20,278 nucleotides of DNA from positions 1-20,278 of the forward strand of contig JANNWY010000023.1 of NCBI GenBank assembly GCA_031409335.1. Direction: 5' to 3'. The translations under genes were made by a program, and so were the position numbers. Positions within the stretch are counted from its first letter, which is position 1. Every line of letters starts with the position of its first letter. This DNA comes from Chthoniobacteraceae bacterium. GTDB lineage: Bacteria > Verrucomicrobiota > Verrucomicrobiia > Chthoniobacterales > Chthoniobacteraceae. This document shows, one piece after another, positions 121-20,142 of the stretch. The notes beneath the pieces are model-generated. The model did not search any database and was not told the origin of the DNA. It saw only the letters and a list, made by a program, of their open reading frames with translations.

Positions 121-139
121 TTTTTCAACAGACTGCTAA
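121..139. repeat. Right terminus of a TTTTTCAACAG(G/A)CTGCTA-type IS/MITE-like element; left part probably outside the window
   Basis: tttttcaacagactgctaa matches the reverse complement of ctagcagcctgttgaaaaa (19969-19987) and resembles tttttcaacaggctctta (17588-17605). Confidence 0.6.
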
Positions 140-167
140 GCCTTGTTTGCAAACGCGACCCTTAGAA

Positions 168-354
168 AGCCTGAAAGGCTGGCACAACACAGCCCGGGGC
201 AACGCCCTGGGTTTGTTGTCCCCATGCCGAAAGACCTGAAAGGGCGGGACATCCAGCGTTCATCGGCTGTCGCGCCCTGTCCGGGCTTGCGGTCGGTGTC
301 TCCGACAATCCAGGGCGTTGCCCCAGGCTGGGGTCGTGGCGCGCCGTTGACCCT
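168..354. repeat. Nested palindromic REP/REPIN-like element (CCCAGGGCAACGCCCTGGG / CCTGAAAGGGCG type)
   Basis: cagcccggggcaacgccctgg (190-210) pairs with ccagggcgttgccccaggctg (310-330) with 1 mismatch. aagacctgaaagggcgggaca (231-251) pairs imperfectly with tgtcgcgccctgtccgggctt (268-288). It resembles palindromes found beside IS200-like Y1 transposases. Confidence 0.75.
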
Positions 355-2672: not shown

Positions 2673-5600
2673 TTACGGTCGCGGGCCGACGACGTTTGCG
2701 AATTGAACGATCGTCCTCGATCCCGTAGCGCTGGTGGAACTGGCGGCGAGGCCGACCAGGCATTGCGCGGGAAGATTGACGGTGGCGGTTCCAATGGCGG
2801 TCCAAATCGCGCCGTCCGTGGAAATGGAGCCGGTGAAACTGGCTCCCTGGCGCGTGAGTTTCACCCAGCCGGGCAGCGCGGGCGCGGGCGCGATGATTCT
2901 TTGCACGGTGGTCGCGATGCCATCGCGCCAGCGCAGAGTGGCGCGGGAGTTGGCCTGAAAATTCAGCGCGGCGTAGCGCGCGCCGGGCAGCAGCGATTCG
3001 CGGAACATCAGGCCGCCGAACGATTGCGAAGTCACAGCGCGCAATGAATCCACGCGGGCGATGATTTCACCGTCGCCCGTCCACGGCAGCCAGACGAAAT
3101 GGATCTCGTCCGCGGCCAGGCCAAGACCCGTGCCTGCCGCGCGGACGGTGAAGAGGTTTGCGGTCGCATTGGCGAGACCGGCTGCCTTGCCGATGTCCTG
3201 CGAAATCCACGGTGCGGGCAGCGGATCGGGGCCGGAAACGGTGACGCTCACCGGGCTCGATGTCGTGACCCCGCCGACATTGTCGGTGGCGCGCGCGGTG
3301 ATCGAGTAACTCCCTGGCGAGACCCCGTTCCAGATGAAGACGAACGGCGGTGCAGTCGCCGCACCTAGCTTTTGTGAGCCGCTGAAAAACTCGACCTTCG
3401 CAATGCTCCCGTCCGCATCGCCCGCATTCGCCACGATCGGGATTTCGGCGGGCGCGAGAAACTGAGCGAGATTCGCTGGCCTTCTGAGCGAAACCGTCGG
3501 CGGCTGATTCGCCAGCGGGCTGACGGTCACCAGCAACGCCTCCGAAACGCCGATGCCGCCGTCGCCGTCGTCGATGAGCGCAGTCGCGCCGCGCCTGCCG
3601 ACGATGGTGAATTTCCCCGCGATCCGACGCAGGATCGCCTGCGCGGAGGCGGGCGTGGCGGCTTCGTTGAAGTCCACCCGCAGCGGAATCGCGCCCGTCC
3701 CGCCAGTCATCGCGCCCACCACCGTCCCGCCGAATCGGACGTTTGAACCGGTGACGCCGACCTGCCCCGGCCCGTGGCCTTCCGGCAAAATCGAAAGCAC
3801 GTCGCCAACGCGCGGAGCGGAAAGGGCGACGCGCAATTTCCCGAACTCAATGCCCGCGCTGTCCGCATCGGTGATCGTCGCGGCGGCGTCGAGAATTTGC
3901 GGAGATGGATTCGCAGCGAGCGGCTGACCGGGAGCGGACCACGCGGCCTGCGGCGCGATGTTGGCCGCGTTCGGGTAAAGCCGCGCGTTGCGGATCACCT
4001 TCGCGCCGAGGTCGTCGGTGACGGTGAGCTGGATGCGAAAAAAGTAAGTCTCGGTGAGGCTGTGGATCGGCGAGATGAGCGCGGCGGCTTCCGCTCCGAA
4101 GACCGCGGGCTCGCCGTGCTGGTGTTCGTTGTGGTGGAGGAAGACGATCCATTGCGACATGGTCGGATGCCCGGGGACTTCGGTGACGCGCCGCTTCAGC
4201 GCGTACTCCGTTTCGCCTTCGAGCGGATATTTCGTGCCGTCGATCGGGCTCAGCAGCGTCACTTCCGGCAGCGTGTGATTCACAAAAATCTGGAGCGTCG
4301 CCTGGTCCGTTCCGTTTGCGGAATCCGTGACGGTCAGCGTCACATCGAAACGCCGCGCACCCGCCGCCGTGAAGACGTGGGTGGGCGAGGGGAGAGTGCT
4401 CGTGGTGCCATCGCCAAAGTCCCACAAAAACGTGAGCGGAAGATTATCGGGATCGAGCGAACCGGCGCTGCTGAAATCCACGCTCAACGGGGCGGGACCG
4501 AGCGTGGCGCTGGCCGACGCGGCGGCGGTCGGCGCGAGATTTCCGCCGGGCGCGTACACGATTTTGTAGATTTCCCCGGCCCCGAGATCGACGGCGTAGA
4601 GCGCGCCGAGGGTCGGGTGCGTCGCGAGAAAAACGGGCGCGCCGCCGGTCGCAAAATCGGCGACTTGCGTTGGGCGGTGGTTCGCGTCGAAGGCGACGGT
4701 CTTGATCCAGTTCGTGGCGAAATCGGCGTGGAAATACAGACCGCGAAATGCCTCGGGAAAATCTGTGCCGTTGTAAAAAACGCCACCCACATTCGCGCGC
4801 GCGATGAACTGCGGCCCGTTCACGTGCGAGCCCGGCGCGCCAACGAGAATTTCGCCCGCGGTCGTATCGAAAAACGTCGCCGCGCGCACCGGCCCGACCG
4901 GGTCCGTGAGCCGCCCGATGTCGAGGACGGGTCGCGCGTGCATGAAGCGCGGAATGCTGGCTGGCACTTGCTGCGCGGGGTTCAGCGGGTTCGGCCACGA
5001 GGGCGTCGCGAGCGTTTCCTGGATGAGCAAGTCGCGAAAATTGAAGAAGCCGCCGAGCGGATTTGGCGCGTCGCGATTTGGAACCGTGCGAGCGAAATAA
5101 CTCTCGTGCCGGTTCAGCCCCTCGAACAGCGGCCAGCCGCAATTCCTGCGCGGGCCATGGATCACGTCGATCTCCTCCCACGACGCCCAGCCGACATCGC
5201 CGAGCACGATCACGCCGGGATCGGCCTCCGCGGGATCGTGGCTGCCGGTCTCGGGGCGGACGGTGAAGCGGAATGGATTTCGCAGCCCAAGCGTCCACAC
5301 GCGCGAGCGCGCGGCGCGCGGATTTGCCGGATCGAAAAAGGGATTGCTCGCGATGCCGTCGCCGGTTTCGGGGTCGATGCGGATGATTTTGCCACTGAGC
5401 GAATCGACGAGTTGCGCGCGAAACGCACCGACATTTTCCTTCACGGAAATGATGCCGTCGGCGAGTGCCTGCGCGGCGTAGGTTGGATTGGGAACGCTGC
5501 CGTCATCGACCTCGTCGTAGTTCGCCGCCTCGCCGCACGAGGCGAGCAGCGTGCCATCGTTGCCAAAGACGAGATGGCCGACGCCGTGCGATTGAAAAAG

Positions 5601-6155
5601 GATCGGGAAGCCGGTCGATTTCGTCTCGCCGACGAGCACCTTCCGGCTCGCGGGATCGACGCTGCGCAATCCGTCCGCCACTCGCGCCGTGTAGCGGGTG
5701 ATGCGCCCGATCGTCGCGGCGAAATATTCGTTCGTCGCGGGGTTGTAAGCGGGCGTGCCGGCGTTCAGCAAATGATGCCGGTCCACGACGTAGCTCAGGT
5801 AGATGAATCCGTTCTGGTGAAAGTTCGGATGCAGCGCGACGCCGAGCAGCCCGTGATCGCGCCACGCGCCGACTTCATCGCTGATGTCGATGAGTGGCGT
5901 CGCGAGTTTCACGCCATTTTCGACGATCCACACCCGGCCCGCGCGCTCCCAGACGTAAACGCGATTTGCGGCTTCGGGACTGGGATCGAAGGCGAGGCCT
6001 ACGGGCTCGTTCCATCCGCTCGCGACTGCCTGCTCGGAAAATCCCGCGGGAAGGGTGAACGCGTGGAGTGGCGTGAATGTGGCCAAGAAGAAAATGCACG
6101 CGATGATGACGGCGGGGATTTTGAACGCGGTAGTGAGTGAAATGGGCGTGGTCAT
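2673..6155 (-). CDS. Secreted PQQ-dependent sugar dehydrogenase-like (GSDH beta-propeller) protein with PKD, Ig-like and C-terminal ConA/DUF1349-like domains
   Basis: 1160 aa. Signal peptide; GSDH motifs (GLLGVALHPNF, SLSGKIIRID, GLRNPFRF, GDVGWASWEEID, NCGWP); PKD (LTFLWDFGDG...HVF...VTLTVTD); Ig-like (DADGSIAKVEFFSG...YSITARATDN); DUF1349-like (GDGEIIARVDS...GGLMFRESL...WVKLTRQG...VGLA). Confidence 0.9.
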   Translation of the reverse strand: MTTPISLTTAFKIPAVIIACIFFLATFTPLHAFTLPAGFSEQAVASGWNEPVGLAFDPSPEAANRVYVWERAGRVWIVENGVKLATPLIDISDEVGAWRDHGLLGVALHPNFHQNGFIYLSYVVDRHHLLNAGTPAYNPATNEYFAATIGRITRYTARVADGLRSVDPASRKVLVGETKSTGFPILFQSHGVGHLVFGNDGTLLASCGEAANYDEVDDGSVPNPTYAAQALADGIISVKENVGAFRAQLVDSLSGKIIRIDPETGDGIASNPFFDPANPRAARSRVWTLGLRNPFRFTVRPETGSHDPAEADPGVIVLGDVGWASWEEIDVIHGPRRNCGWPLFEGLNRHESYFARTVPNRDAPNPLGGFFNFRDLLIQETLATPSWPNPLNPAQQVPASIPRFMHARPVLDIGRLTDPVGPVRAATFFDTTAGEILVGAPGSHVNGPQFIARANVGGVFYNGTDFPEAFRGLYFHADFATNWIKTVAFDANHRPTQVADFATGGAPVFLATHPTLGALYAVDLGAGEIYKIVYAPGGNLAPTAAASASATLGPAPLSVDFSSAGSLDPDNLPLTFLWDFGDGTTSTLPSPTHVFTAAGARRFDVTLTVTDSANGTDQATLQIFVNHTLPEVTLLSPIDGTKYPLEGETEYALKRRVTEVPGHPTMSQWIVFLHHNEHQHGEPAVFGAEAAALISPIHSLTETYFFRIQLTVTDDLGAKVIRNARLYPNAANIAPQAAWSAPGQPLAANPSPQILDAAATITDADSAGIEFGKLRVALSAPRVGDVLSILPEGHGPGQVGVTGSNVRFGGTVVGAMTGGTGAIPLRVDFNEAATPASAQAILRRIAGKFTIVGRRGATALIDDGDGGIGVSEALLVTVSPLANQPPTVSLRRPANLAQFLAPAEIPIVANAGDADGSIAKVEFFSGSQKLGAATAPPFVFIWNGVSPGSYSITARATDNVGGVTTSSPVSVTVSGPDPLPAPWISQDIGKAAGLANATANLFTVRAAGTGLGLAADEIHFVWLPWTGDGEIIARVDSLRAVTSQSFGGLMFRESLLPGARYAALNFQANSRATLRWRDGIATTVQRIIAPAPALPGWVKLTRQGASFTGSISTDGAIWTAIGTATVNLPAQCLVGLAASSTSATGSRTIVQFANVVGPRP

Positions 6156-6222: not shown

Positions 6223-8766
6223 TCAGGGTAGCGTTACTTTCAGGCGGATGTGGCGCGGGCTGTTGGCGGAGGCGGGTGTGTTGTCGCGCACGCGGAGTGT
6301 TGTCGGCGAGTTGGTTTCGATCGTCGTTCCGAGTGAGGACCACGATGCCGGCACGGTGAGATTGCCGGTGACTTCGATGCTGAATACGAGGTCGGTCGCG
6401 GCGGGATTTCGCGCGAGCGTGAGGCGCAGGAATTTGTCGGGACCGATGCTTTCCAAATCGACCGTGATGCCGCCGACCCCGGCAGCCAGCGGATCGTGCG
6501 CGAGCGCGTATTCGAGCAGATTCACCTCGCCGTCGCGATCGGGATTCGCGGTCAGGCCCGCGATGGCGGGATTCGGATTTGGGCCGAAATGATCGAGCGT
6601 CCACTGCTCGATCGGCGTGTTCGGATAAAGGCGGACCTCGCGCACCACGCTCGCGCCGAGGTCGTCGGTGACGGTGAGCTGGACGCGGTATAAATACGTT
6701 TCCGTCGCGCTGTACGCGGGCGAGATCAGGACGCTCGTTGTGTTCGCGAGGATGGGCGGTTCGGCGTGGGAATGTTCGTTGTGATGCAGGAAGACGCGCC
6801 ATTGCGTGGTCGTCGGATGGCCGGGTGATTCCGTGACGCTGCGCGTGAGCTGATAGGAAGTCGCGGCGGCGGTGGAATACCTCGTGCCGTCGAGCGGAGT
6901 CAGGATTTGGGCCGCGGGCAGTGTGTGATTCGCGAAGATCGGCAGGCTCGCCTGCGCAGTCGCGCCCGCGGCGTCGGTGACGGTCAGCGTGACATCGAAA
7001 CGCCGCGTGCCGGGCGCGGTGAAAACGTGCGTCGGCGCGGCAGCCGTGCTCGTGTTGCCGTCGTCAAAACTCCAAAGAAACGTGAGCGGCTGGCCGTCGG
7101 GATCGAGCGATCCGGCGCTGCTGAAAGTCACGCTCAACGGCGATGCGCCGATCTTCACCGACGCGGACGCCACGACTTTAGGCGGCTGATTTCCGCCCGG
7201 CGCATAGACGATCTTCCGCACCGTCGCGTCCGCATAATCGACGACGAAAAGCCCGCCGAGCGTGGGATGCGTCGTCAGAAAAACGGGCGCGCCGCCGGTC
7301 GCGAAATCGCGCACTTCGATCGGACGATAGTTCGCGCCGAGCGTGATCGCCTTGATCCAGCCGCGCCCGTAATCCGCGTGGAAATATGCGTGATGATAGA
7401 TCTCGGGAAAATCCTCGCCGTGATAGACCACGCCGCCAGTGCTCGCATTCGCGCCAAACTGCGGCCCCGCCACCGGCGAACCCGGCGCGCCGACCTGCGC
7501 CTCGCCCGCGGTCGTCCCATTGAAAACTGGCACGAGCGCCTGGTCGAAATGCGCCGCGTCGATGACGGGCCGCGTGTGCATGAAGCGGTGCAGCGTCGCG
7601 GGAATTTGCTGCGCGGGATCGAGCGGATTCGGCCACGAGGGCGGCGCGAGCGTTTCCTGAATGATCAAATCGCGGAATTTGAAAAAGCCGCCGAGCGGAT
7701 TCGGCGCATCGAGATTTACCGGCGAGAAAAAATCGAAACTCGCGTGACGCGTGAGCCCCTCGAAGAGCGGCCAGCCGCAATTTTTCCCCGGCCCGTCGAT
7801 CACCTCGATGCTTTCCCACGCGCCCCAGCCCACGTCGCCGAGCAGGATCACGCCAGGATTTCCCTCCGCGGGATCGTGCCCGCCCGTTTCGGGATGGACG
7901 GTGAAGCGATATGGATTGCGAAAACCAAGCGCCCACACGCGCGAGCGCGGCGCACGCGGATTTGCGGGATCGAAAAACGGATTGCTCGCGAGCCCGTTGC
8001 CCGTCGCCGGATCGAGCCGCAGCACTTTCCCGCTCAGCGAATCGACGAGCTGCGAACGAAATGTGCCGACGTTTTCCTTTGGCCGCAGAATGCCATCGAG
8101 CAACGCCTGCGGCGCGAAGCTGATCGCGGGATTGCTGCCATTATCGACCTCGAAAAAATTCGCCGCCTCGCCGCACGACGCCAGCAGCGTGCCATCATTC
8201 CCAAACACCAGATGCCCGACGCCGTGCGACTGATGGACGATGGGAATCCCCGTCGTGATCGACTCCCCGAGCAGCACCGTGCGGCTCGCGGGAGCGACGC
8301 TGCGAAAGCCGTCGCTCGCCCGCGCCGTGTAGCGCGTGATGCGCCCGATCGTCGCCGCGAAGTCGGTGTTCGCCTGCGGGTCGTACGACGGCGTGACCGC
8401 ATTCAGCAAGTGATAGCGGTCCACGACGTAGAAGAGGTAGATGTGTCCGTTCTGCTGAAAGTTCGGATGCAGCGCGAAGCCGAGCATCCCGTAGTCGCCC
8501 CAGTTCGCGACCTCGTCGTGAATGTCGATGAGCGGCGTCGCGAGCTTCACGCCGTTTTCGACGAGCCACACGCGGCCCGCGCGTTCCCAGATGTAAAAAC
8601 GATTCGCGCCTTGCGGAGTCGGGTCGATGGCGATGCCGACGGGATCGGTCCAGCCGCTGCCGATGAGTTGCTCGGAGAATCCGGGCGGGAGAGTGAGGGC
8701 GCGGGCTGGTGAGAAAATCGCGAGCCAGATCACGGCGAGCAGGGCGGGAGTGGGAATGCGATTCAT
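6223..8766 (-). CDS. Secreted GSDH-like + PKD protein with a Verrucomicrobia-type C-terminal extracellular domain; paralog of 2673..6155
   Basis: 847 aa. Same GSDH and PKD motifs (GMLGFALHPNF, GFRNPYRF, FLWSFDDG); C-terminus DRDGEVNLLEYALAHDP...RNPAATDL...VRDNTP...HIRLKVTLP. Confidence 0.9.
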   Translation of the reverse strand: MNRIPTPALLAVIWLAIFSPARALTLPPGFSEQLIGSGWTDPVGIAIDPTPQGANRFYIWERAGRVWLVENGVKLATPLIDIHDEVANWGDYGMLGFALHPNFQQNGHIYLFYVVDRYHLLNAVTPSYDPQANTDFAATIGRITRYTARASDGFRSVAPASRTVLLGESITTGIPIVHQSHGVGHLVFGNDGTLLASCGEAANFFEVDNGSNPAISFAPQALLDGILRPKENVGTFRSQLVDSLSGKVLRLDPATGNGLASNPFFDPANPRAPRSRVWALGFRNPYRFTVHPETGGHDPAEGNPGVILLGDVGWGAWESIEVIDGPGKNCGWPLFEGLTRHASFDFFSPVNLDAPNPLGGFFKFRDLIIQETLAPPSWPNPLDPAQQIPATLHRFMHTRPVIDAAHFDQALVPVFNGTTAGEAQVGAPGSPVAGPQFGANASTGGVVYHGEDFPEIYHHAYFHADYGRGWIKAITLGANYRPIEVRDFATGGAPVFLTTHPTLGGLFVVDYADATVRKIVYAPGGNQPPKVVASASVKIGASPLSVTFSSAGSLDPDGQPLTFLWSFDDGNTSTAAAPTHVFTAPGTRRFDVTLTVTDAAGATAQASLPIFANHTLPAAQILTPLDGTRYSTAAATSYQLTRSVTESPGHPTTTQWRVFLHHNEHSHAEPPILANTTSVLISPAYSATETYLYRVQLTVTDDLGASVVREVRLYPNTPIEQWTLDHFGPNPNPAIAGLTANPDRDGEVNLLEYALAHDPLAAGVGGITVDLESIGPDKFLRLTLARNPAATDLVFSIEVTGNLTVPASWSSLGTTIETNSPTTLRVRDNTPASANSPRHIRLKVTLP

Positions 8767-9552: not shown

Positions 9553-10494
9553 GTGAAAAAAATCGTCTCGCTCGTCATCAGCCTCGGGCTGCTGGCGATC
9601 CTTTATTGGCAGATCGACTTCGCGCGGCTGCTCCCCGTTTTCGCGGGATGCGATCCGCTGTGGATGACGCTGAGCCTCGCGATGGTCGTGCCGCTCACGC
9701 TTTTTACAGCATGGCGATTGCAGCAGCTCATGCCGGCCCGCGGGCAGATGAGTTTTGGCGAAGCGAACCGGCTCATCCTCGTCGCGAGCGTGCTGAATCT
9801 CGTGCTGCCCTCGAAGATGGGGGACATCGCCAAAGCGTGGTTCATGCGTGACCGCGGGCATTTGGATGGCTCGCTCGCGCTGTCGCTCGTGGTGTTTGAG
9901 AAAGCGTGCGACATGCTTTCGCTGCTGCTGTGGTGCGCATTCGGGCTCGCGCTCTATCCGCGGAAGGACGCGCTGTTCTGGGTGATGACGGCGGCGGTCG
10001 CGGCGATGTTCATCTTGGGATCGCTGGTGCTCATTTCGGAGAAATGCGCGCAGTGGTTCTTCGCGTTGGCGGCACGGTTTGCGCCGGGAAAGGCGCGAGC
10101 GAAGTTTGAAAAACTCGCCGCTTCGTGGAGCGAGATGCACGGCTACTTTTGGGGAAGTCGCGCGCGGCTTTGGAAGGTCGTGAGCACTTCGGTTTTCATC
10201 TGGTTTCTCCACTTGCTGCAAATCTGGATGTTCATCCTCGCGCTTCGCGCCAGCGCACCGTTCGTGGCCAGCCTCGCGCTTTCACCGCTCGCGATTTTGG
10301 CGGGATTGTTCCCGCTGACATTCGCCGGCGTCGGCACGCGCGATGCAGCGCTCGTGTTTTTCTACGCGCCTTATTTCAGCGCCCCCACCGCCGCCGCCCT
10401 TGGCCTGCTCTGTACCGCGCGCTACGTCATGCCCGCGCTCGGCGGGCTGCCTTTCGCCGGGCCGTATTTCAATTCGGCGCGGGCGGAAAAGTGA
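9553..10494 (+). CDS. Lysylphosphatidylglycerol synthase TM-region / flippase-like (UPF0104) membrane protein
   Basis: 313 aa, multi-pass hydrophobic; motifs AWRLQQL, NLVLPSKMGDIAK, SLVVFEKACD, FPLTFAGVGTRDAA. GTG start. Confidence 0.85.
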   Translation: MKKIVSLVISLGLLAILYWQIDFARLLPVFAGCDPLWMTLSLAMVVPLTLFTAWRLQQLMPARGQMSFGEANRLILVASVLNLVLPSKMGDIAKAWFMRDRGHLDGSLALSLVVFEKACDMLSLLLWCAFGLALYPRKDALFWVMTAAVAAMFILGSLVLISEKCAQWFFALAARFAPGKARAKFEKLAASWSEMHGYFWGSRARLWKVVSTSVFIWFLHLLQIWMFILALRASAPFVASLALSPLAILAGLFPLTFAGVGTRDAALVFFYAPYFSAPTAAALGLLCTARYVMPALGGLPFAGPYFNSARAEK

Positions 10495-10514
10495 CGCTGG
10501 CTTTCCAGGCTGTG
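10491..10514 (+). repeat. Solitary degenerate REP copy (left boundary of cassette)
   Basis: gtgacgctggctttccaggctgtg versus consensus gtgacacaggctttccagcctgtg. Its GTGA supplies the TGA stop of the upstream gene. Confidence 0.75.
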
Positions 10515-10564: not shown

Positions 10565-11737
10565 ATGAAGATGTTCCCCTCGGTTGTCGCCCTCCTTGTT
10601 GCCTCGACGCTCGCGTACGCCGCCGCACCCGTCGTCTCGAATATCCGCGCCGCGCAGCGGGCGGGGACGAAGCTGGTGGATATTTACTACGATGTCGCGG
10701 ATGCCGAGGGCGACGCGCTCACGGTCGAGATTCAGGTCTCGAATGACAACGGCGCCACCTACGCCGTGCCCGCGTTCAGCTTCAGCGGGGCGGTGGGCGG
10801 CGGCGTCACGCCAGGCGCGAATCGGGCGGCGGTGTGGAATGCGGGCTTCGATTGGGACGGCCAGTATTCCGCGCAGACGCGCGTGAAAGTCACCGCCCAC
10901 GACGGCCTCGCCCCGCCCGCCGGCATGGTCTATGTGCCGCTGGGGACTTTTTCGATGGGCGGAACACAGTATGCGAACGAGCAGCCGATCCACAACGTCA
11001 CTACCGACGCCTTTTTCACGGATCGTTTTGAAGTGACCTCGGCTTTGTATGCAAACGTGCGAACATGGGCTGCGTCGAACGGCTACAGCATGGGTAGCGG
11101 GACCGCGGCTGGGCAGAGCCATCCGATTGTGGGCATCTCGTGGTACGACGCGGTGAAATGGTGCAACGCCCGTTCACGAAAGGAAAATCTCACGCCCGTT
11201 TATTACACCGACACTGCGCAGACGAATGAATACAAGACCGGCACTCCGGGCATCACCAATGCCATGGTGAAATGGAACGCCAACGGCTATCGCCTCCCAA
11301 CGGAGGGCGAGTGGGAAAAAGCTGCGCGTGGTGGAAGCAATCAACTCAATTATCCGTGGGGCAACTCTGCGTCCAACTTTCAAGCTAACGCCCTTGGCAG
11401 CGGCGATCCGTTTGAAGGTAGCAATCTAGCGACAACTCCGGTGGGTTATTACAATGGTTCCCAGACTCCCACCGGCCCGGACATGGCAAATAGTTACGGG
11501 CTTTACGATATGGCCGGAAACGCCTGGGAATGGTGTTGGGATTGGTATGACGTATCGTACTACAGCGATCCAAATGCGGGATCGAACCCACAAGGTCCGA
11601 CAACAAGTAATAGCCGCGTTGTCCGGGGCGGCTCGTGGAACCAAAACTCCAGCTACCTGCGTTGCGCTTTTCGTAACTATGGCGGGCCATCAAACTCCGA
11701 CAACGCCATTGGCTTCCGGTGTGTTCGTGGCCTTTAG
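10565..11737 (+). CDS. Secreted formylglycine-generating enzyme family (FGE-sulfatase/SUMF1, C-type-lectin fold) protein with N-terminal Ig-like domain
   Basis: Signal peptide; GMVYVPLGTFSMG, FEVT, ISWYDAVKWCN, GYRLPTEGEWEKAARGG, YPWG, NSYGLYDMAGNAWEWCWDWY, RVVRGGSW, GFRCVR. It lacks the catalytic Cys pair of true FGE. The start could be 10565 or 10571. Confidence 0.92.
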   Translation: MKMFPSVVALLVASTLAYAAAPVVSNIRAAQRAGTKLVDIYYDVADAEGDALTVEIQVSNDNGATYAVPAFSFSGAVGGGVTPGANRAAVWNAGFDWDGQYSAQTRVKVTAHDGLAPPAGMVYVPLGTFSMGGTQYANEQPIHNVTTDAFFTDRFEVTSALYANVRTWAASNGYSMGSGTAAGQSHPIVGISWYDAVKWCNARSRKENLTPVYYTDTAQTNEYKTGTPGITNAMVKWNANGYRLPTEGEWEKAARGGSNQLNYPWGNSASNFQANALGSGDPFEGSNLATTPVGYYNGSQTPTGPDMANSYGLYDMAGNAWEWCWDWYDVSYYSDPNAGSNPQGPTTSNSRVVRGGSWNQNSSYLRCAFRNYGGPSNSDNAIGFRCVRGL

Positions 11738-11800
11738 TTTTTTTGCTGCCGACCCTCTTCCTCTTTGCCAGAAGCCGTGCGACGCGCCCGCAAACCGAAT

Positions 11801-12025
11801 GTGACACGGCCTTTCCAGGCCGTGATCCCCACGCCGCCGAAGGCGCACTTCTCCGCGGGATCGCGCGTCCGAAGAAAAAGAGTGCGCCTTCGGCGGTGGG
11901 CTTTGGACCACGGGCTGGAAAGCCCGTGTCACATTCACGGCTTGGAAAAGCCGTGGCACCTTCACAGGCTGCCGTTTCGACAGGCTCAAGGCCCCGAGCC
12001 TGTCGAGGGGGAAAGCCTGTGTCAC
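11801..12025. repeat. REPIN/BIME-like cluster of four REPs upstream of the RAYT
   Basis: REPs at 11801-11824(+), 11909-11932(-), 11936-11959(-) and 11963-12025(-, split by a 39-nt insert). Inner 16-bp perfect inverted repeat ccgccgaaggcgcact (11834-11849) / agtgcgccttcggcgg (11881-11896). Confidence 0.9.
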
Positions 12026-12057
12026 CTTGCGGAAGGCCCGGGCCACACTTTTCGTTT

Positions 12058-12969
12058 ATGAAGCCGCTCGATAAATCGGCGCACATCGCGAAGCGGCGGC
12101 GGAATCTGCCGCATTGGGAGCAGGCGGGCTGCACTTACTTCATCACCTGGCGGCTCGCGGATTCGCTGCCGGGGTCGCAACTCGCGGCATGGCGCGAGGA
12201 GCGCGCACGCTGGCTGGCGCTGAATCCGCCGCCGTGGACGCCGCGTGTGCTGGCGGATTACCAGCGCGAATTCATCGACCGCATCGAGCACTGGCTGGAT
12301 GCGGGCCACGGCGCGTGCATCCTGCGCCGCCCGGAGGTGCGCGCTGTCCTCGCCAAGGCGCTGCATTTTTTCGACGGGGAGCGGTATGAACTCGAAGGGG
12401 CGGTCATCATGCCGAATCACGTCCACGTCCTCGTGACGCCGAAATGTGACACAGCCTTTCCAGGCTGTGATCCGCAATGTGGCTCGGGCTTTCCAGCCCG
12501 TGATCCCCACGCCGCCGCTGCCGGCGCACTTCCCCCATCGGCGGACGGGGAAGGTCCCGGAACACAGGCTGGAAAGCCTGTGTCACATTTAGCGCATTCG
12601 CTTTCGGGGATTTTGCAGTCTTGGAAGGGATTTAGCGCGAGGGAGATCAATCGGCTACTCGGTCGGAAGGGGCCGCTGTGGATGGATGAGAATTTCGATC
12701 ACACCGTCCGCAGCAGCGAGCAACTCGCGCATTTCCAGCGATACCTCGCGGCGAATCCGGTAAAGGCGCGGCTGCGGGAGGAGGAATACTATCTGTGGCA
12801 GCAGAGTGACACAGGCTTTCCAGCCTGTGAGCCCCAACCCGCCGAAGGCGCACTTCTCTACCCCGAAGCAGAAGATCAAATCAGCACAGCCCTGGCAGGC
12901 TGTGAGCCGGGTGGACCGCGGGCTGGAAAGCCCGTGTCACATTCCCGCGCCAACCCTTTCCCGGCATGA
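12058..12969 (+). CDS. REP-associated tyrosine transposase (RAYT / TnpA-REP, HUH Y1 family)
   Basis: RRNLPHW, TYFITWRLADSLP, LDAGHGACIL, HUH motif IMPNHVH, ILQSWKGFSAREIN, LWMDENFDHTVRS, catalytic RYLAANPVKA (Tyr at 12742-12744). It is surrounded by REPs, and the frame is open upstream to 11719. Confidence 0.92.
   Translation: MKPLDKSAHIAKRRRNLPHWEQAGCTYFITWRLADSLPGSQLAAWREERARWLALNPPPWTPRVLADYQREFIDRIEHWLDAGHGACILRRPEVRAVLAKALHFFDGERYELEGAVIMPNHVHVLVTPKCDTAFPGCDPQCGSGFPARDPHAAAAGALPPSADGEGPGTQAGKPVSHLAHSLSGILQSWKGFSAREINRLLGRKGPLWMDENFDHTVRSSEQLAHFQRYLAANPVKARLREEEYYLWQQSDTGFPACEPQPAEGALLYPEAEDQISTALAGCEPGGPRAGKPVSHSRANPFPA
12442..12590. repeat. Intragenic in-frame REPIN (three REPs) inside the RAYT
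   Basis: REPs at 12446-12469(+), 12479-12502(+) and 12563-12586(-). The ends aaatgtgaca / tgtcacattt are perfectly inverted. Confidence 0.9.
12806..12940. repeat. REPIN forming the 3' end of the RAYT ORF
   Basis: Consensus REP 12806-12829(+), spacer motif ccgccgaaggcgcacttctc, degenerate hairpin cacagccctggcaggctgtg (12885-12904), and REP 12917-12940(-). Confidence 0.9.
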
Positions 12970-15900
12970 TGCGACGGCTGGCAATCCTGCTATCGATCCT
13001 GTGGGTGCTGACGCGCGTCGGCACCGCCGCGAATTTCGATGAATCGCCCGCTTTCGAGTTGAACACGCTGACGCCCGGCGGCACAGGCACGGCGGTTTCG
13101 CTCCCATTCGTGCTCAATACGCTGACGCCGGGTGCAACGAGCGTGGCGGTCTCGGGCAGCTTCACGGTGAACACGCGAGGGCCGACGGGGCTGAGTGGGA
13201 GCCGGGTTTCGGGCGGGTTTGTGGTGGATACGCGGAATACGACTACGACCTTGCTGACGGTGAATGCTCCACCGGGCATCAGCGGCGGAGCGGCGATCGT
13301 GCTGAGTGCGACTGCGACATTTTCCAGCGGGCCGCCAGAGGACGTGAGCGATCGTGCGACGTTTAGCGTCACGGGCGGACCCGCCAACACGCGGATGATC
13401 GGACGAACCCTCCGCACCGGTTACAGCGCGACTCCGGTGACGGCGATATTGCGCGCGAGTTATTGGCGCAATACCCAGCAGATTGCCTCCCAGCCGCGCA
13501 CGATCGTGATCGGCCCGGCCCTGAACGTCACCCTGAGCGCGCAACCACCGGTCGGAGTCGGGAGTGGCGGCACCGCATCGTGGACGCTCAACGCCACGGC
13601 AGCGGCGATCGGAGGCGTGCCACCTTTCAGCAATGTGCAGTGGCGCTGGCGTGGAAACAATTTGAACTCAACGAGTCTTCACCTTGTTGAGTCCGTGGGC
13701 GGCCCGCTTGGAGCCGGGCAACTGGATGTGACTGTCACTGATGCGAACGGCAAAATCGGGAGTGCCTTCACCATCCTTTCGCTGAACAAGGCACCGGTGA
13801 TGAGCCAGCCGCTCCAGACCACTACGACTTTGAAAAATGAGCCCGGCACGCTTTACCATAGTGACGGAGTGACGGGAGTGAATCTGCGGACTGAGCGGAA
13901 GAATGCCGGACTGCTGGTGATCGCGCATGGTCTGATCGACAGGGTCGAATTGCCGAATGCCGGCAATCCCTGCGGTGGCTGGATGGTGCGAATGGCGCAG
14001 GCCATCGAAACGAAGCTAACCGTTAGCGCGGATGGCCCGCCAAATGTGCTGCTCTTCGACTGGAACGAAAGCGCGGACCCTTCCAAATACCTCGGGACAA
14101 ATGCGCGAAACCAAGCGGCCAAAGACTTGCTTGCTGAACTTGGCGAGCGACGGAATCAGCTCGCCGGTCCAATTTTTGCGCCTGTAGTCTACGATGCACT
14201 GAGTCCAGTACAACAGAAACTCACGGATATTCGTTCCATCCGGGAAATAGCGGAAAGACAAGGAGCGGCTCTTGCCAAATGGATCGAGACACAAATCTCC
14301 CTTGGCAAGATTTCCGTCGATGAAGAAATTCATTTGGTTGGTCACAGCGCGGGCGGGTTTGTCGTCGCGACCTGCGCCGGGAGACTGCTGGCGAAGCGCC
14401 CCGCGATTTCGAAGCTGCTGGTGACGACCCTCGACACACCGCTGTTTCGGAAGGTGCATATCGAAGGCGTTAAAGATCACGGTGCCCGGATTGAGCGGTA
14501 CAATTCCTCGTGGATCGGCAATACAAATCCGGCCCTGGCGACGATCCCGGATCGGCGGACCTTTTATCCCACGCTGCTTTTTTCCTCCTCCCCAGCGAAT
14601 TTCCCGCGATTTTTGAATTCCGAGCCAATCGTCATTCCCGACGCCGGTTACCGCGTTGGTGAGGCAACATCGACGGGCACCTGTCCAGACAGTGATGCCT
14701 TCGCGATGCACAGCGAGGCGCATGAGTGGTATATCGAATCGGTTTTGAAGGCCGGAGAGTGGCGTGACGGGTTCTATTTTTCACCGTTCCTCGGCAACAC
14801 TTGGAGCGGGAGCGGCGGCGTTGCTGCCGCGCAGGTGCGCTTTCCGCAGGCGGTCGCTGGAATGCTACAACCTCCGCCGCCAGATCAACCGCTCAACGGA
14901 TTCCAGACGTTTGGGCAGGTCGCGGAGAATACGGGCGAATACACGCTCACGGAACTGGACGATGCGGGCATCTTTCAAACGCTGACCGTTCCGATTGGTG
15001 CAACTGACCTGAAATTTCGCGTGCGGTTCGATCAGATCGGCGATGGAGATTTTCTCGAGGTGAGTTTTGGCGACCATGCGCCACTGAGAGTGATCGACGG
15101 ACTCGCCACGAACGCGGGGCAATGGGTCGAGTATGAAGTCCCGACGCCAGCGATCGCTGGTGAAACCGGCACACTCGTTTTCAGACTTTCAAGCAGGGGC
15201 ACAAGCGATGCCGTGGTGCGCCTGGACAATCTCGCGTTTGTGATGTCGGACGACCCCGATGGAGACGGGCTATCCAATTCCGCAGAAGCTCTGCTTGGTG
15301 CAGACCCGTTGGTCTTTGACTCCGATGGCGATGGATTGAGCGATGGGTTTGAAGCCCAAGATTCTCACACCAACGCGCTGATTTTCGACACCGACGGCGA
15401 TGGCGTGGACGACTACTTGGAGGTATTGGCTGGGACGAATTCGGGGAGTGGGAATTCGGTGTTTTCGATTAAGTCGATCGCGCCTGCGGCTGGCGGTGGT
15501 GTGGCACTTTCCTGGACGGGCCGGAGCGGGAGCACGTATCGCGTGCTGCGCTCGGCGACGCCGGATTTTGCGAGCTTCGATGTGATCGCGGCTGCCGTGC
15601 CGGGAGTCGCGCCGCTGACGAGCTACACGGATGCGACGGTGGATTCGCAGCAGTTGGCGGGGATGTTTTACCGGGTCGAAGTCGCGGAGGCTCCGGCTTA
15701 TGCGGCGAACATGAACGGGGACTCGGATGGCGATGGTATCCCGGATGGATGGGAACTGGATCGCGGGTTTAATGCGGATTTTGCGGCGGATGCTTGGCTC
15801 GATACGGACGGCGATGGGAGCAGCACGCTGCTCGAATTCGCGCTCGGGACCGATCCGCGTGCGAACTCGCGCGATGGGATCGGGATCTACACGGACGAGG

Positions 15901-16109
15901 ACGGCTACCTCACGCTCACGACAAGTCGCAATCCTGCGGCGACGGGTTTGCAGCTTCGCATCGCGGTTTCCGTCGATCTGGCGACGTGGTATTCCGACGC
16001 CGCGCATGTGACGATCCTCGCGAATACGCCCACGCTGCTCAAAGCGCGTGACAACATTCCACTCGGAAGTGCCGAGCGTCGGTTCATCAGACTCGAGGTT
16101 AACAAGTAG
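12966..16109 (+). CDS. Large secreted alpha/beta-hydrolase (lipase-like) protein with DxDGDG calcium-binding repeats and Verrucomicrobia-type C-terminal domains
   Basis: 1047 aa. Signal peptide; LLVIAHGL, NVLLFDW, nucleophile elbow IHLVGHSAGG (GHSAG at 14340-14354), VTTLDTP, candidate catalytic His in HSEAHEWY; several DxDGDG repeats; C-terminal FYRVEV and FIRLEV modules. Confidence 0.85.
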   Translation: MMRRLAILLSILWVLTRVGTAANFDESPAFELNTLTPGGTGTAVSLPFVLNTLTPGATSVAVSGSFTVNTRGPTGLSGSRVSGGFVVDTRNTTTTLLTVNAPPGISGGAAIVLSATATFSSGPPEDVSDRATFSVTGGPANTRMIGRTLRTGYSATPVTAILRASYWRNTQQIASQPRTIVIGPALNVTLSAQPPVGVGSGGTASWTLNATAAAIGGVPPFSNVQWRWRGNNLNSTSLHLVESVGGPLGAGQLDVTVTDANGKIGSAFTILSLNKAPVMSQPLQTTTTLKNEPGTLYHSDGVTGVNLRTERKNAGLLVIAHGLIDRVELPNAGNPCGGWMVRMAQAIETKLTVSADGPPNVLLFDWNESADPSKYLGTNARNQAAKDLLAELGERRNQLAGPIFAPVVYDALSPVQQKLTDIRSIREIAERQGAALAKWIETQISLGKISVDEEIHLVGHSAGGFVVATCAGRLLAKRPAISKLLVTTLDTPLFRKVHIEGVKDHGARIERYNSSWIGNTNPALATIPDRRTFYPTLLFSSSPANFPRFLNSEPIVIPDAGYRVGEATSTGTCPDSDAFAMHSEAHEWYIESVLKAGEWRDGFYFSPFLGNTWSGSGGVAAAQVRFPQAVAGMLQPPPPDQPLNGFQTFGQVAENTGEYTLTELDDAGIFQTLTVPIGATDLKFRVRFDQIGDGDFLEVSFGDHAPLRVIDGLATNAGQWVEYEVPTPAIAGETGTLVFRLSSRGTSDAVVRLDNLAFVMSDDPDGDGLSNSAEALLGADPLVFDSDGDGLSDGFEAQDSHTNALIFDTDGDGVDDYLEVLAGTNSGSGNSVFSIKSIAPAAGGGVALSWTGRSGSTYRVLRSATPDFASFDVIAAAVPGVAPLTSYTDATVDSQQLAGMFYRVEVAEAPAYAANMNGDSDGDGIPDGWELDRGFNADFAADAWLDTDGDGSSTLLEFALGTDPRANSRDGIGIYTDEDGYLTLTTSRNPAATGLQLRIAVSVDLATWYSDAAHVTILANTPTLLKARDNIPLGSAERRFIRLEVNK

Positions 16110-16152: not shown

Positions 16153-16176
16153 CACAAGCTGGAAAGCCTGTGTCAC
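16153..16176 (-). repeat. Solitary REP copy (right boundary of cassette)
   Basis: cacaagctggaaagcctgtgtcac is the reverse complement of the consensus with 1 change. Confidence 0.88.
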
Positions 16177-19968: not shown

Positions 19969-20142
19969 CTAGCAGCCTGTTGAAAAAGTCGCCGATTCCA
20001 ATTCCGGATTCCTGCTCTTGATCTTGATCTTGATCTTGATCTTGATCCTCTGTTTGCCAGAGTAAACAACCCTCGCATTGGAATCAAGATCAGGAGCAAG
20101 AGCAAGAGCAGGAGTCCGCCCCGAGGTTTTTCGACAGCCTAG
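19969..20142. repeat. Palindromic MITE-like element with hexamer-repeat core
   Basis: Ends ctagcagcctgttgaaaaa and tttttcgacagcctag. The core (tcttga)x5 at 20016-20045 faces atcaagatcaggagcaagagcaagagcaggag (20083-20114). Confidence 0.8.

What the first reader, a model, noticed from the sequence alone, without database searches (positions are those of the whole stretch)
12442..12590. RAYT carries its own REPIN in frame within the catalytic domain
Seen: directly after the HUH strand (IMPNHVHVLVTP) comes a ~49-aa stretch, KCDTAFPGCDPQ...TQAGKPVSH, encoded by three REPs. The normal RAYT sequence then resumes (LAHSLSGILQSWK). There is no stop or frameshift, and the HUH and catalytic Tyr are intact. 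Known: this junction is normally a short loop, and in-frame palindrome insertions are known from Rickettsia RPEs. Inference: the enzyme's own substrate lies in its gene, which could allow self-cleavage, autoregulation or an excisable on/off switch, or may just be a tolerated loop insertion.
Basis: partly seen in the sequence, partly recalled or inferred. Interest (0 to 1): 0.8.

Follow-up and report, generated by a model that had tools for sequence, protein, structure and literature searches.

The report
Transposase gene carrying its own hairpins
A bacterial hairpin-cutting transposase gene carries three copies of its likely target repeat in frame inside a predicted floppy loop, and the enzyme around them stays conserved; this arrangement was described in 2018, so this is a well-supported new case rather than a new kind of switch.

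Summary
Confirmed. Three REP hairpins (12446-12586) add 48 codons, in frame, between the HUH strand and the next helix of a RAYT (12058-12969); H121, H123, Y229 and N233 are intact. A second copy in the same genome and a contig from another study carry the same insert with frame-preserving indels. The enzyme core is under purifying selection (dN/dS 0.22), while the insert peptide drifts and is predicted disordered. Among 176 parsed close homologues (enriched for inserts), 45 have a longer loop at this site, built from several different REP types, in lineages that do not form one clade (AU p=0.002). The internal REPIN usually resembles its own gene's flanking REPINs. In-frame REPs between HUH and Tyr are published (Quentin 2018, PMC6006769: typical of subclass 2.4, 'some' in 2.7/2.8); this gene is 2.7-like. 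This scan also found such cases on other DNA. Best reading: a tolerated loop that is repeatedly invaded and refreshed by local REPIN traffic and held in frame by selection. No allele with the insert cleanly excised was seen, so a switch is unsupported; autoregulation is untested.

The parts
12058..12969 (+). RAYT / TnpA-REP gene, 303 aa, subclass 2.7-like
   Evidence: translation; NF047646 partial hit, 60.5 bits, below its cut-off of 80 because the insert splits the match; Foldseek top hit 4ER8, E 5e-4
12418..12426 (+). HUH motif, H121-V-H123
   Evidence: sequence; invariant in A2; aligns to the HUH strand of 4ER8
12445..12588 (+). in-frame REP-derived insert, net 144 nt (48 codons), in the beta3-alphaC loop; ends uncertain by a few bases
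   Evidence: spacing 195 nt against the usual 51 nt; pLDDT below 50 over residues 132-158 and 163-175
12446..12469 (+). internal REP 1 (GTGA foot, 8-bp stem, 4-nt loop)
12479..12502 (+). internal REP 2 (degenerate), followed by a spacer shared with the flanking REPINs
   Evidence: family D1
12563..12586 (-). internal REP 3 (inverted partner)
12742..12756 (+). catalytic Y229 ... N233 (class 2 Y---NP motif)
   Evidence: sequence; invariant in A2; motif defined in PMC6006769
11801..11932 (.). upstream REPIN (132 nt), followed by a degenerate REP at 11936-11959 and a further partial REP near 12010-12032
12806..12940 (.). downstream REPIN (135 nt), translated in frame as the C-terminal tail; the stop codon overlaps the next gene's ATG
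   Evidence: tail dN/dS 0.92

Best explanation
The insert is a REPIN of the gene's own repeat family sitting in frame in the beta3-alphaC loop of a conserved RAYT, and it is most likely a tolerated passenger rather than a control device. Shown: the position, the frame, the match to the flanking REPINs, purifying selection on the core, drift of the insert peptide, and recurrence at this loop in separate lineages with different REP types. Inferred: REPINs reach this spot through RAYT nicking and strand transfer, or through recombination with the flanking REPINs a few hundred bases away. They are then refreshed the same way, which keeps the internal copy close to the current flanking type. Frame-breaking versions lose the catalytic Tyr half and are removed by selection. 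Predicted: the peptide is a disordered surface loop. By sequence alignment it sits at the position of E. coli residues 66-68, a former dimer-interface spot of IS200 transposases that is free in the monomeric TnpA-REP.
For: Selection: C23 vs C71 core, 194 codons, dN 0.075, dS 0.336, ratio 0.22, Fisher p 5e-9; loop 0.63 (49 codons); REP-coded tail 0.92. Third allele: contig 1 of run X4 (another study) spans the insert with a net -9 nt. Of its listed changes, 12 of 13 changed core codons are synonymous against 1 of 6 in the loop (Fisher p 0.003). All 5 indels between C23 and C71 in the loop are multiples of 3. Structure: a low-confidence insert between a confident strand (122-128) and helix (182-201). 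PMC6006769 models the 2.4 insert in this loop as peripheral. PMC3479197 places IS608 P73 / E. coli E68 there and reports TnpA-REP as a monomer. Recurrence: 45 of 176 parsed homologues have 36-113 aa here instead of 17, and 42 of the 45 match REP-type peptides of 8 overlapping motif classes. At least 5 state changes on a 157-row tree; one clade rejected, p-AU 0.002. Refreshing: in 15 of 22 proteins with a REP-coded tail of 20 aa or more, the loop matches its own tail better than at least 93% of other proteins' tails. At DNA level, L033 has four internal REPs of its own flanking type. The two insert-bearing genes are the only ones flanked by this REP family; 0 of 13 other Y1 loci in the assembly have it within 700 nt.
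Against: Neutrality of the insert as DNA or RNA is not shown: its REP stems are well kept, which homogenisation or selection could both explain. The multiple-of-3 argument is weaker than it looks. The upstream REPIN, which is not clearly coding (an in-frame stop precedes the ATG in C71), also shows four 3-nt gaps (plus gaps of 76 and 88 nt), and all 8 REP-pair spans in the two REPtrons are multiples of 3 against 1 of 6 elsewhere. Internal and flanking types differ in L112 and P0005 and in 7 of the 22 proteins above. The tree cannot tell repeated gains from precise losses. Both genomic copies come from one cassette duplication, so they are not independent insertions. No expression or activity data.
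Confidence: 0.68

Rival explanations
1. Cis-autoregulation. The internal REPIN is kept for what it does as nucleic acid: RAYT would bind or nick its own gene when single-stranded, or the mRNA hairpin would slow translation or shorten the message, giving negative feedback on a hazardous nuclease.
For: Very stable RNA hairpin, -89 kcal/mol, z -6.8. REP feet on both strands of the gene. The internal copy often tracks the flanking type. The state persists across deep clades. TnpA-REP is described as strongly down-regulated (abstract passage of PMC3479197).
Against: Most relatives do without it: 176 of 194 DNA spacings are the plain 51 nt, and REP inserts appear in 2 of 160 collection loci. Flanking REPINs already supply cis targets within about 400 nt. 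Decayed inserts with no recognisable REP peptide persist in three proteins. In L112 the internal REP is of a different type from the flanking ones.
Confidence: 0.2
2. Excisable on/off switch. The insert inactivates the enzyme, and precise excision of 144 nt in some cells restores an active gene.
For: Removing 144 nt would restore the usual 17-residue spacing exactly (arithmetic). Insert-free genes with the usual spacing are nested among insert-bearing ones (P0143/P0144 and an 11-row clade). REP-junction truncations exist among homologues: P0350, P0010, P0309, P0351.
Against: No joint skipping the insert was listed in contigs of 7 runs (one joint row was not shown, and contigs drop rare alleles). 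None of the cluster members read (20 of 21 shown) had an insert-free loop. In-frame indels accumulate inside the insert, which suggests the insert-bearing form is what gets translated. The truncated forms lose the catalytic half, are not restorations, and may be assembly chimeras at repeats.
Confidence: 0.06
3. Decaying pseudogene in which the insert is in frame by chance.
For: The REP is stop-free in 5 of 6 frames, so one in-frame insertion is not improbable. The protein falls below the NF047646 cut-off and has no Pfam hit.
Against: Core dN/dS 0.22 (p 5e-9); C-terminal core 0.06. The third allele shows the same pattern. Catalytic residues intact. The low HMM score comes from the split match.
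Confidence: 0.04

Closest known systems
In-frame REP insertions inside tnpA-REP genes, TnpA-Y1 subclass 2.4 (= Bertels RAYT group 4), Quentin et al. 2018, PMC6006769
   Same: Own REPs inside the gene; frame kept; located between HUH and Tyr in the beta3-alphaC loop; variable length; modelled as a peripheral loop (passages and sections 10, 12, 15 part 1, 26, 31, supplement legends).
   Different: The motifs here are not those of 2.4: W-M instead of WQ, D at the E100 position, YLAANP instead of YIxNNP, and a ~50-aa extra segment after beta1. The REP foot is GTGA, not GT[AG]G. In the sections read, the paper gives no selection test, no count of independent origins and no comparison of internal with flanking copies.
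TnpA-Y1 subclass 2.7 (PMC6006769)
   Same: NHVH; D100; R104; long variable N-terminus; long canonical REPs. The Table S1 REPs of 2.7 have the same build (4-nt foot, 7-9-bp stem, 3-4-nt loop). [quoted passage not shown]
   Different: Q95 is Met in all 45 insert-bearing proteins; GTGA foot; YLAANP; relatives are mostly Verrucomicrobiota.
E. coli TnpA-REP (PDB 4ER8; PMC3479197, PMC8266576)
   Same: Fold; HUH plus Y---N active site; REPs on both sides of the gene.
   Different: Subclass 2.2, GTAG foot, no internal REP by length (165 aa), 14% identity.
Intragenic GTAG REPs of Opitutus terrae and Rickettsia RPEs (Di Nocera 2013, PMC3733652)
   Same: REP singles, dimers and clusters translated in frame as 20-82 aa inserts, most frequent in a verrucomicrobial genome (section 15).
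   Different: Targets there are host genes. Section 16 reports only flanking or end-overlapping REPs at RAYT genes.

Membership tests
RAYT / TnpA-REP (TnpA-Y1 class 2) | HUH motif and Y---NP catalytic motif | tested here: met
   H121-V-H123; Y229-LAA-N233-P
RAYT / TnpA-REP (TnpA-Y1 class 2) | Y1 transposase fold closest to 4ER8 | tested here: met
   predicted model, Foldseek rank 1 is 4ER8, E 5e-4; profile hit to 4ER8, E 2e-4
RAYT / TnpA-REP (TnpA-Y1 class 2) | NF047646 score above the curated cut-off | tested here: not met
   60.5 bits against 80; the match is split by the insert into profile positions 28-66 and 70-138
RAYT / TnpA-REP (TnpA-Y1 class 2) | gene flanked by inverted REPs of a family dispersed in the genome | tested here: met
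   REPINs on both sides; 41 copies on 19 contigs, 25 of them outside the two REPtrons
RAYT / TnpA-REP (TnpA-Y1 class 2) | REP-dependent ssDNA cleavage and strand transfer | not testable with these tools
   needs biochemistry
Subclass 2.4 (RAYT group 4) | variable in-frame REP insert in the beta3-alphaC loop | tested here: met
Subclass 2.4 (RAYT group 4) | WQ and YIxNNP motifs, E at position 100 | tested here: not met
   WMDENFDHTVR and YLAANP against Table 1 and section 14 text
Subclass 2.7 | [ND]HVH; D100 and R104; long N-terminus | tested here: met
   NHVH; W208...D214 H215...R218; 120 residues before the HUH motif
Subclass 2.7 | WQ and YI[LR][NQ]NP consensus | tested here: not met
   WM; YLAANP here, YIRENP in most relatives
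Subclass 2.7 | long canonical REP with GT[AG]G foot | tested here: inconclusive
   same hairpin build as Table S1 rows for 2.7, but the foot is GTGA; related loci show GTAG 100, GTGG 52, GTGA 31, GTAA 18
Subclass 2.7 | placement with the paper's reference proteins in a tree or profile | not testable with these tools
   the reference accessions could not be fetched, so the gene is called '2.7-like', not a member
Subclass 2.3 | conserved, non-REP 55-aa beta3-alphaC insert, no flanking REPs | tested here: not met
   the insert here is REP-derived and variable; the C53 and C88 genes of this genome fit 2.3 motifs instead

The most novel reading that the evidence does not exclude
The beta3-alphaC loop codons are an actively cycled self-target. 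RAYTs of this lineage insert, replace and sometimes precisely remove REPINs inside their own gene, so the internal copy records changes of REP specificity with a lag (older type inside, new type outside in P0005 and L112). This would be a natural record of how REPINs move and how RAYT-REP pairs co-evolve, and possibly a feedback device.
Probability: 0.22. Interest if true: 0.65.

Novelty: new member of a known kind. Interest (0 to 1): 0.33.

Why it matters
How RAYTs spread REPINs is unresolved; PMC8266576 calls the dissemination mechanism poorly understood (abstract listing). The arrangement itself is in print. What this case adds is evidence that insert-bearing enzymes stay under purifying selection, that the same loop changed state at least five times in a 2.7-like lineage with different REP types, and that internal and flanking REPINs are usually homogenised, spacer included. 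It offers a natural set of alleles with and without the insert for testing loop tolerance, self-cleavage and REPIN exchange. It is not evidence of a new regulatory switch.

Tried and rejected
Excision alleles: contigs of runs X1-X4 and X4, X5, X7, X8 gave no listed joint skipping the insert. Joints between REPs had short sides and look like other REPINs of the genome. Contigs cannot exclude rare alleles.

Expression: no RNA holder listed; no evidence either way.

General multiple-of-3 rule for REPINs of this RAYT family: not seen in a noisy heuristic scan of 160 loci (18 of 61 pairs inside the open frame, 20 of 58 outside).

More DNA examples: a pattern for HUH followed by a REP in 151 genomes of the family gave 5 matches. 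Only C23 and C71 are inserts; C92 has the usual spacing; G441 and G455 look like ordinary loops and were not examined further. 301 class genomes searched with P0016 listed no other full-length insert-type match among the rows shown (42 rows unlisted). These are mostly incomplete MAGs. Viral contigs gave only 9 weak hits. L047's 138-nt spacing was a mis-anchored match and was dropped.

DGR: the upstream FGE-sulfatase-domain gene ends like a DGR variable region, but no template repeat was found in the assembly.

Composite REP-bounded transposon (REPs at 10491 and 16153 bracket the cassette): the C71 copy has no REP at the upstream position.

Sigma-70 promoter and intrinsic terminator scans of 11600-13100 found none.

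REP copies elsewhere in the genome: the open frames over them look like shadow ORFs by eye; not tested with a gene finder.

The second structural aligner (pdb_via) gave no result because the machine was busy. The careful tree did not finish; quick trees were used.

Trees: one search left out insert-free proteins without M or L after the conserved Trp, proteins with fewer than 95 residues before the HUH motif, and parse failures; P0014 and P0098 (6 and 10 extra residues) were labelled insert-free. In one search, 21 cluster members were set aside and 12 of 188 proteins failed to parse.

Literature: six searches listed no paper on selection or homogenisation of RAYT-internal REPINs. Figures S4, S6 and S10 of PMC6006769 are images and could not be seen; they may show 2.7 cases like this one.

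Full report
Observation. The RAYT gene is 12058-12969 (+), 303 aa. Residues K129-H177 are encoded by three REPs at 12446-12469, 12479-12502 and, inverted, 12563-12586. The segment folds far better than shuffles as DNA (z -8.7) and as RNA (z -6.8). The REP is a GTGA foot plus an 8-bp stem and 4-nt loop. It has 41 copies on 19 contigs, 16 of them in the two RAYT loci and 25 elsewhere. REPINs of the same type, including a shared spacer, lie upstream (11801-11932) and downstream (12806-12940, read as the protein's tail). The spacing from the HUH motif to the next anchor is 195 nt against 51 nt in 176 of 194 spacings measured at DNA level (the two own loci are counted twice), so the net insert is 144 nt. 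H121, H123, Y229 and N233 are intact and invariant among 35 aligned homologues.

Identity. NF047646 hits only in pieces because the insert splits the match. The AlphaFold model has a confident core and a low-confidence insert between strand 122-128 and helix 182-201, and its best solved match is E. coli TnpA-REP, 4ER8. Mapping H123 to E. coli H61 puts the insert at about residues 66-68. There IS608 has the dimer-interface residue P73 and monomeric TnpA-REP has E68 (PMC3479197 section 16), which is a plausible reason for the loop's tolerance (inference). Related loci in named genomes are mostly Verrucomicrobiota, so the host is likely of that phylum.

The gene is not decaying. A second copy (G000:C71:2292-3224) arose with a duplication of the whole three-gene cassette, about 80-84% identical. 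It carries the same insert at 56 codons, and the five indels in the loop are 6, 6, 3, 30 and 3 nt. Core dN/dS is 0.22 over 194 codons (p 5e-9), against 0.63 in the loop and 0.92 in the REP-coded tail. A contig from another study (run X4) spans the insert with a net loss of 9 nt; 12 of 13 changed core codons are synonymous against 1 of 6 in the loop. None of 13 other Y1 loci in the 98%-complete assembly has this REP within 700 nt, so the two insert-bearing genes are the likely cognate enzymes of the family (inference). One caution: 3-nt gaps also occur in the upstream REPIN, and all 8 REP-pair spans in the two REPtrons are multiples of three against 1 of 6 elsewhere. Frame-keeping in the loop may therefore partly reflect exchange among the local REPINs.

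It is recurrent. Of 188 homologues from two searches, 176 parsed; 129 have the usual 17 residues and 45 have 36-113. This set is enriched for inserts. In a less biased DNA sample only 2 of 160 collection loci had REP inserts (L033, L112). The inserts spell different REP families (8 overlapping motif classes; 3 of 45 unrecognisable). On a tree of the core without the loop they need at least five changes of state, and a single clade is rejected (p-AU 0.002; quick tree, LG+G4). Insert-free genes with the exact usual spacing are nested among insert-bearing ones, so gains and precise losses cannot be told apart. In 15 of 22 proteins with a REP-coded tail, the loop resembles its own tail more than almost all other tails (kin are not independent), and L033 shows the same at DNA level. 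L112 and P0005 are exceptions, with a different REP type inside than outside. Four broken forms end in or just after the insert (P0010, P0309, P0350, P0351). Two are 100% identical to intact proteins up to the loop, and P0350 looks like a join of the internal REP to the downstream REPIN; they may be real rearrangements or assembly chimeras.

Mechanism. The most likely reading (0.68) is a permissive surface loop that is invaded and refreshed by local REPIN traffic, with selection on the enzyme removing frame-breaking versions. Traffic by RAYT strand transfer or recombination is inferred, not shown. Autoregulation through the DNA or RNA hairpin (0.2) is untested. The fact that most relatives lack the insert and some keep only a decayed one argues against a need for it. 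An excisable switch (0.06) lacks any excised allele in the contigs of 7 runs. Decay (0.04) is contradicted by the selection data.

Prior work. Quentin et al. 2018 (PMC6006769; I read passages, sections 10, 12, 15 part 1, 26 and 31, the supplement's legends, and part 1 and the 2.7 rows of Table S1) report frame-preserving REP insertions inside tnpA-REP genes between HUH and Tyr, in the beta3-alphaC loop, as the mark of subclass 2.4. [quoted passage not shown] By motifs and REP build this gene is 2.7-like and not 2.4. Di Nocera 2013 (PMC3733652; passages and sections 15, 16) describes in-frame REPs in host genes of Opitutus terrae. PMC8266576 (passages) and PMC3479197 (passages and section 16) supplied the guide-sequence rule and the monomer argument.

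Verdict. A real, well-supported feature and a new member of a known kind. The added value is the evidence for function with the insert, for repeated change of state at one loop, and for homogenisation with the flanks. Interest 0.33.

Noticed in passing
window 10568-16109; G000:C71:212-4694; G000:C77:1388-2467; G000:C105:6452-11746: The RAYT sits between an FGE-sulfatase-domain gene and a large secreted TSP3-repeat protein. The cassette is duplicated (C71, continued on C77), and a third, distant pair on C105 has no RAYT and only ~100 nt between the genes, including a short REP-like fragment.
   Followed up: partly
G000:C71:1-212 and G000:C77:1200-1390: The second copy of the large secreted-protein gene is interrupted by other DNA with about 10 bases repeated on both sides; the C77 side encodes what looks like a transposase end (family recalled as ISKra4/UPF0236-like, not tested).
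   Followed up: no
L032-L191; G000:C92, C96, C107; L033: In 62 of 160 related loci the RAYT domain lies in an open frame longer than 450 codons, i.e. apparently fused inside host genes with its REPs read through. P0219 and P0226 have both a host fusion and an internal REP array. Earlier notes of this scan describe this lifestyle.
   Followed up: partly
protein position after W208 (E. coli Q95): All 45 insert-bearing proteins have Met where E. coli has the guide-contacting Q95, against 68 of 131 others; this may be shared ancestry or a change in REP-foot recognition.
   Followed up: no
window 12963-12972: The RAYT stop codon overlaps the start of the next gene (ATGA), and this is kept in the C71 copy, so the frame through the downstream REPIN could couple translation of the two genes.
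   Followed up: no
window 135-330 and 19970-20140: Two other dispersed palindromic repeat families, with 55 blastn pieces on 31 contigs and 123 on 43 contigs; the second contains TCTTGA/TCAAGA hexamer runs.
   Followed up: no
window 2673-6155 and 6223-8766: Tandem paralogous large proteins, 74% identical over 2.1 kb of DNA.
   Followed up: no
window 10491-10514 and 16153-16176: Single REPs of the same family, in opposite orientation, at both ends of the cassette; the first overlaps the stop codon of the upstream membrane-protein gene.
   Followed up: partly
G000:C53:602-1147, G000:C88:23021-23563: Two RAYT-like genes with subclass 2.3 motifs and a non-REP insert of about 55 aa in the same loop, showing that this loop also carries protein domains.
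   Followed up: no
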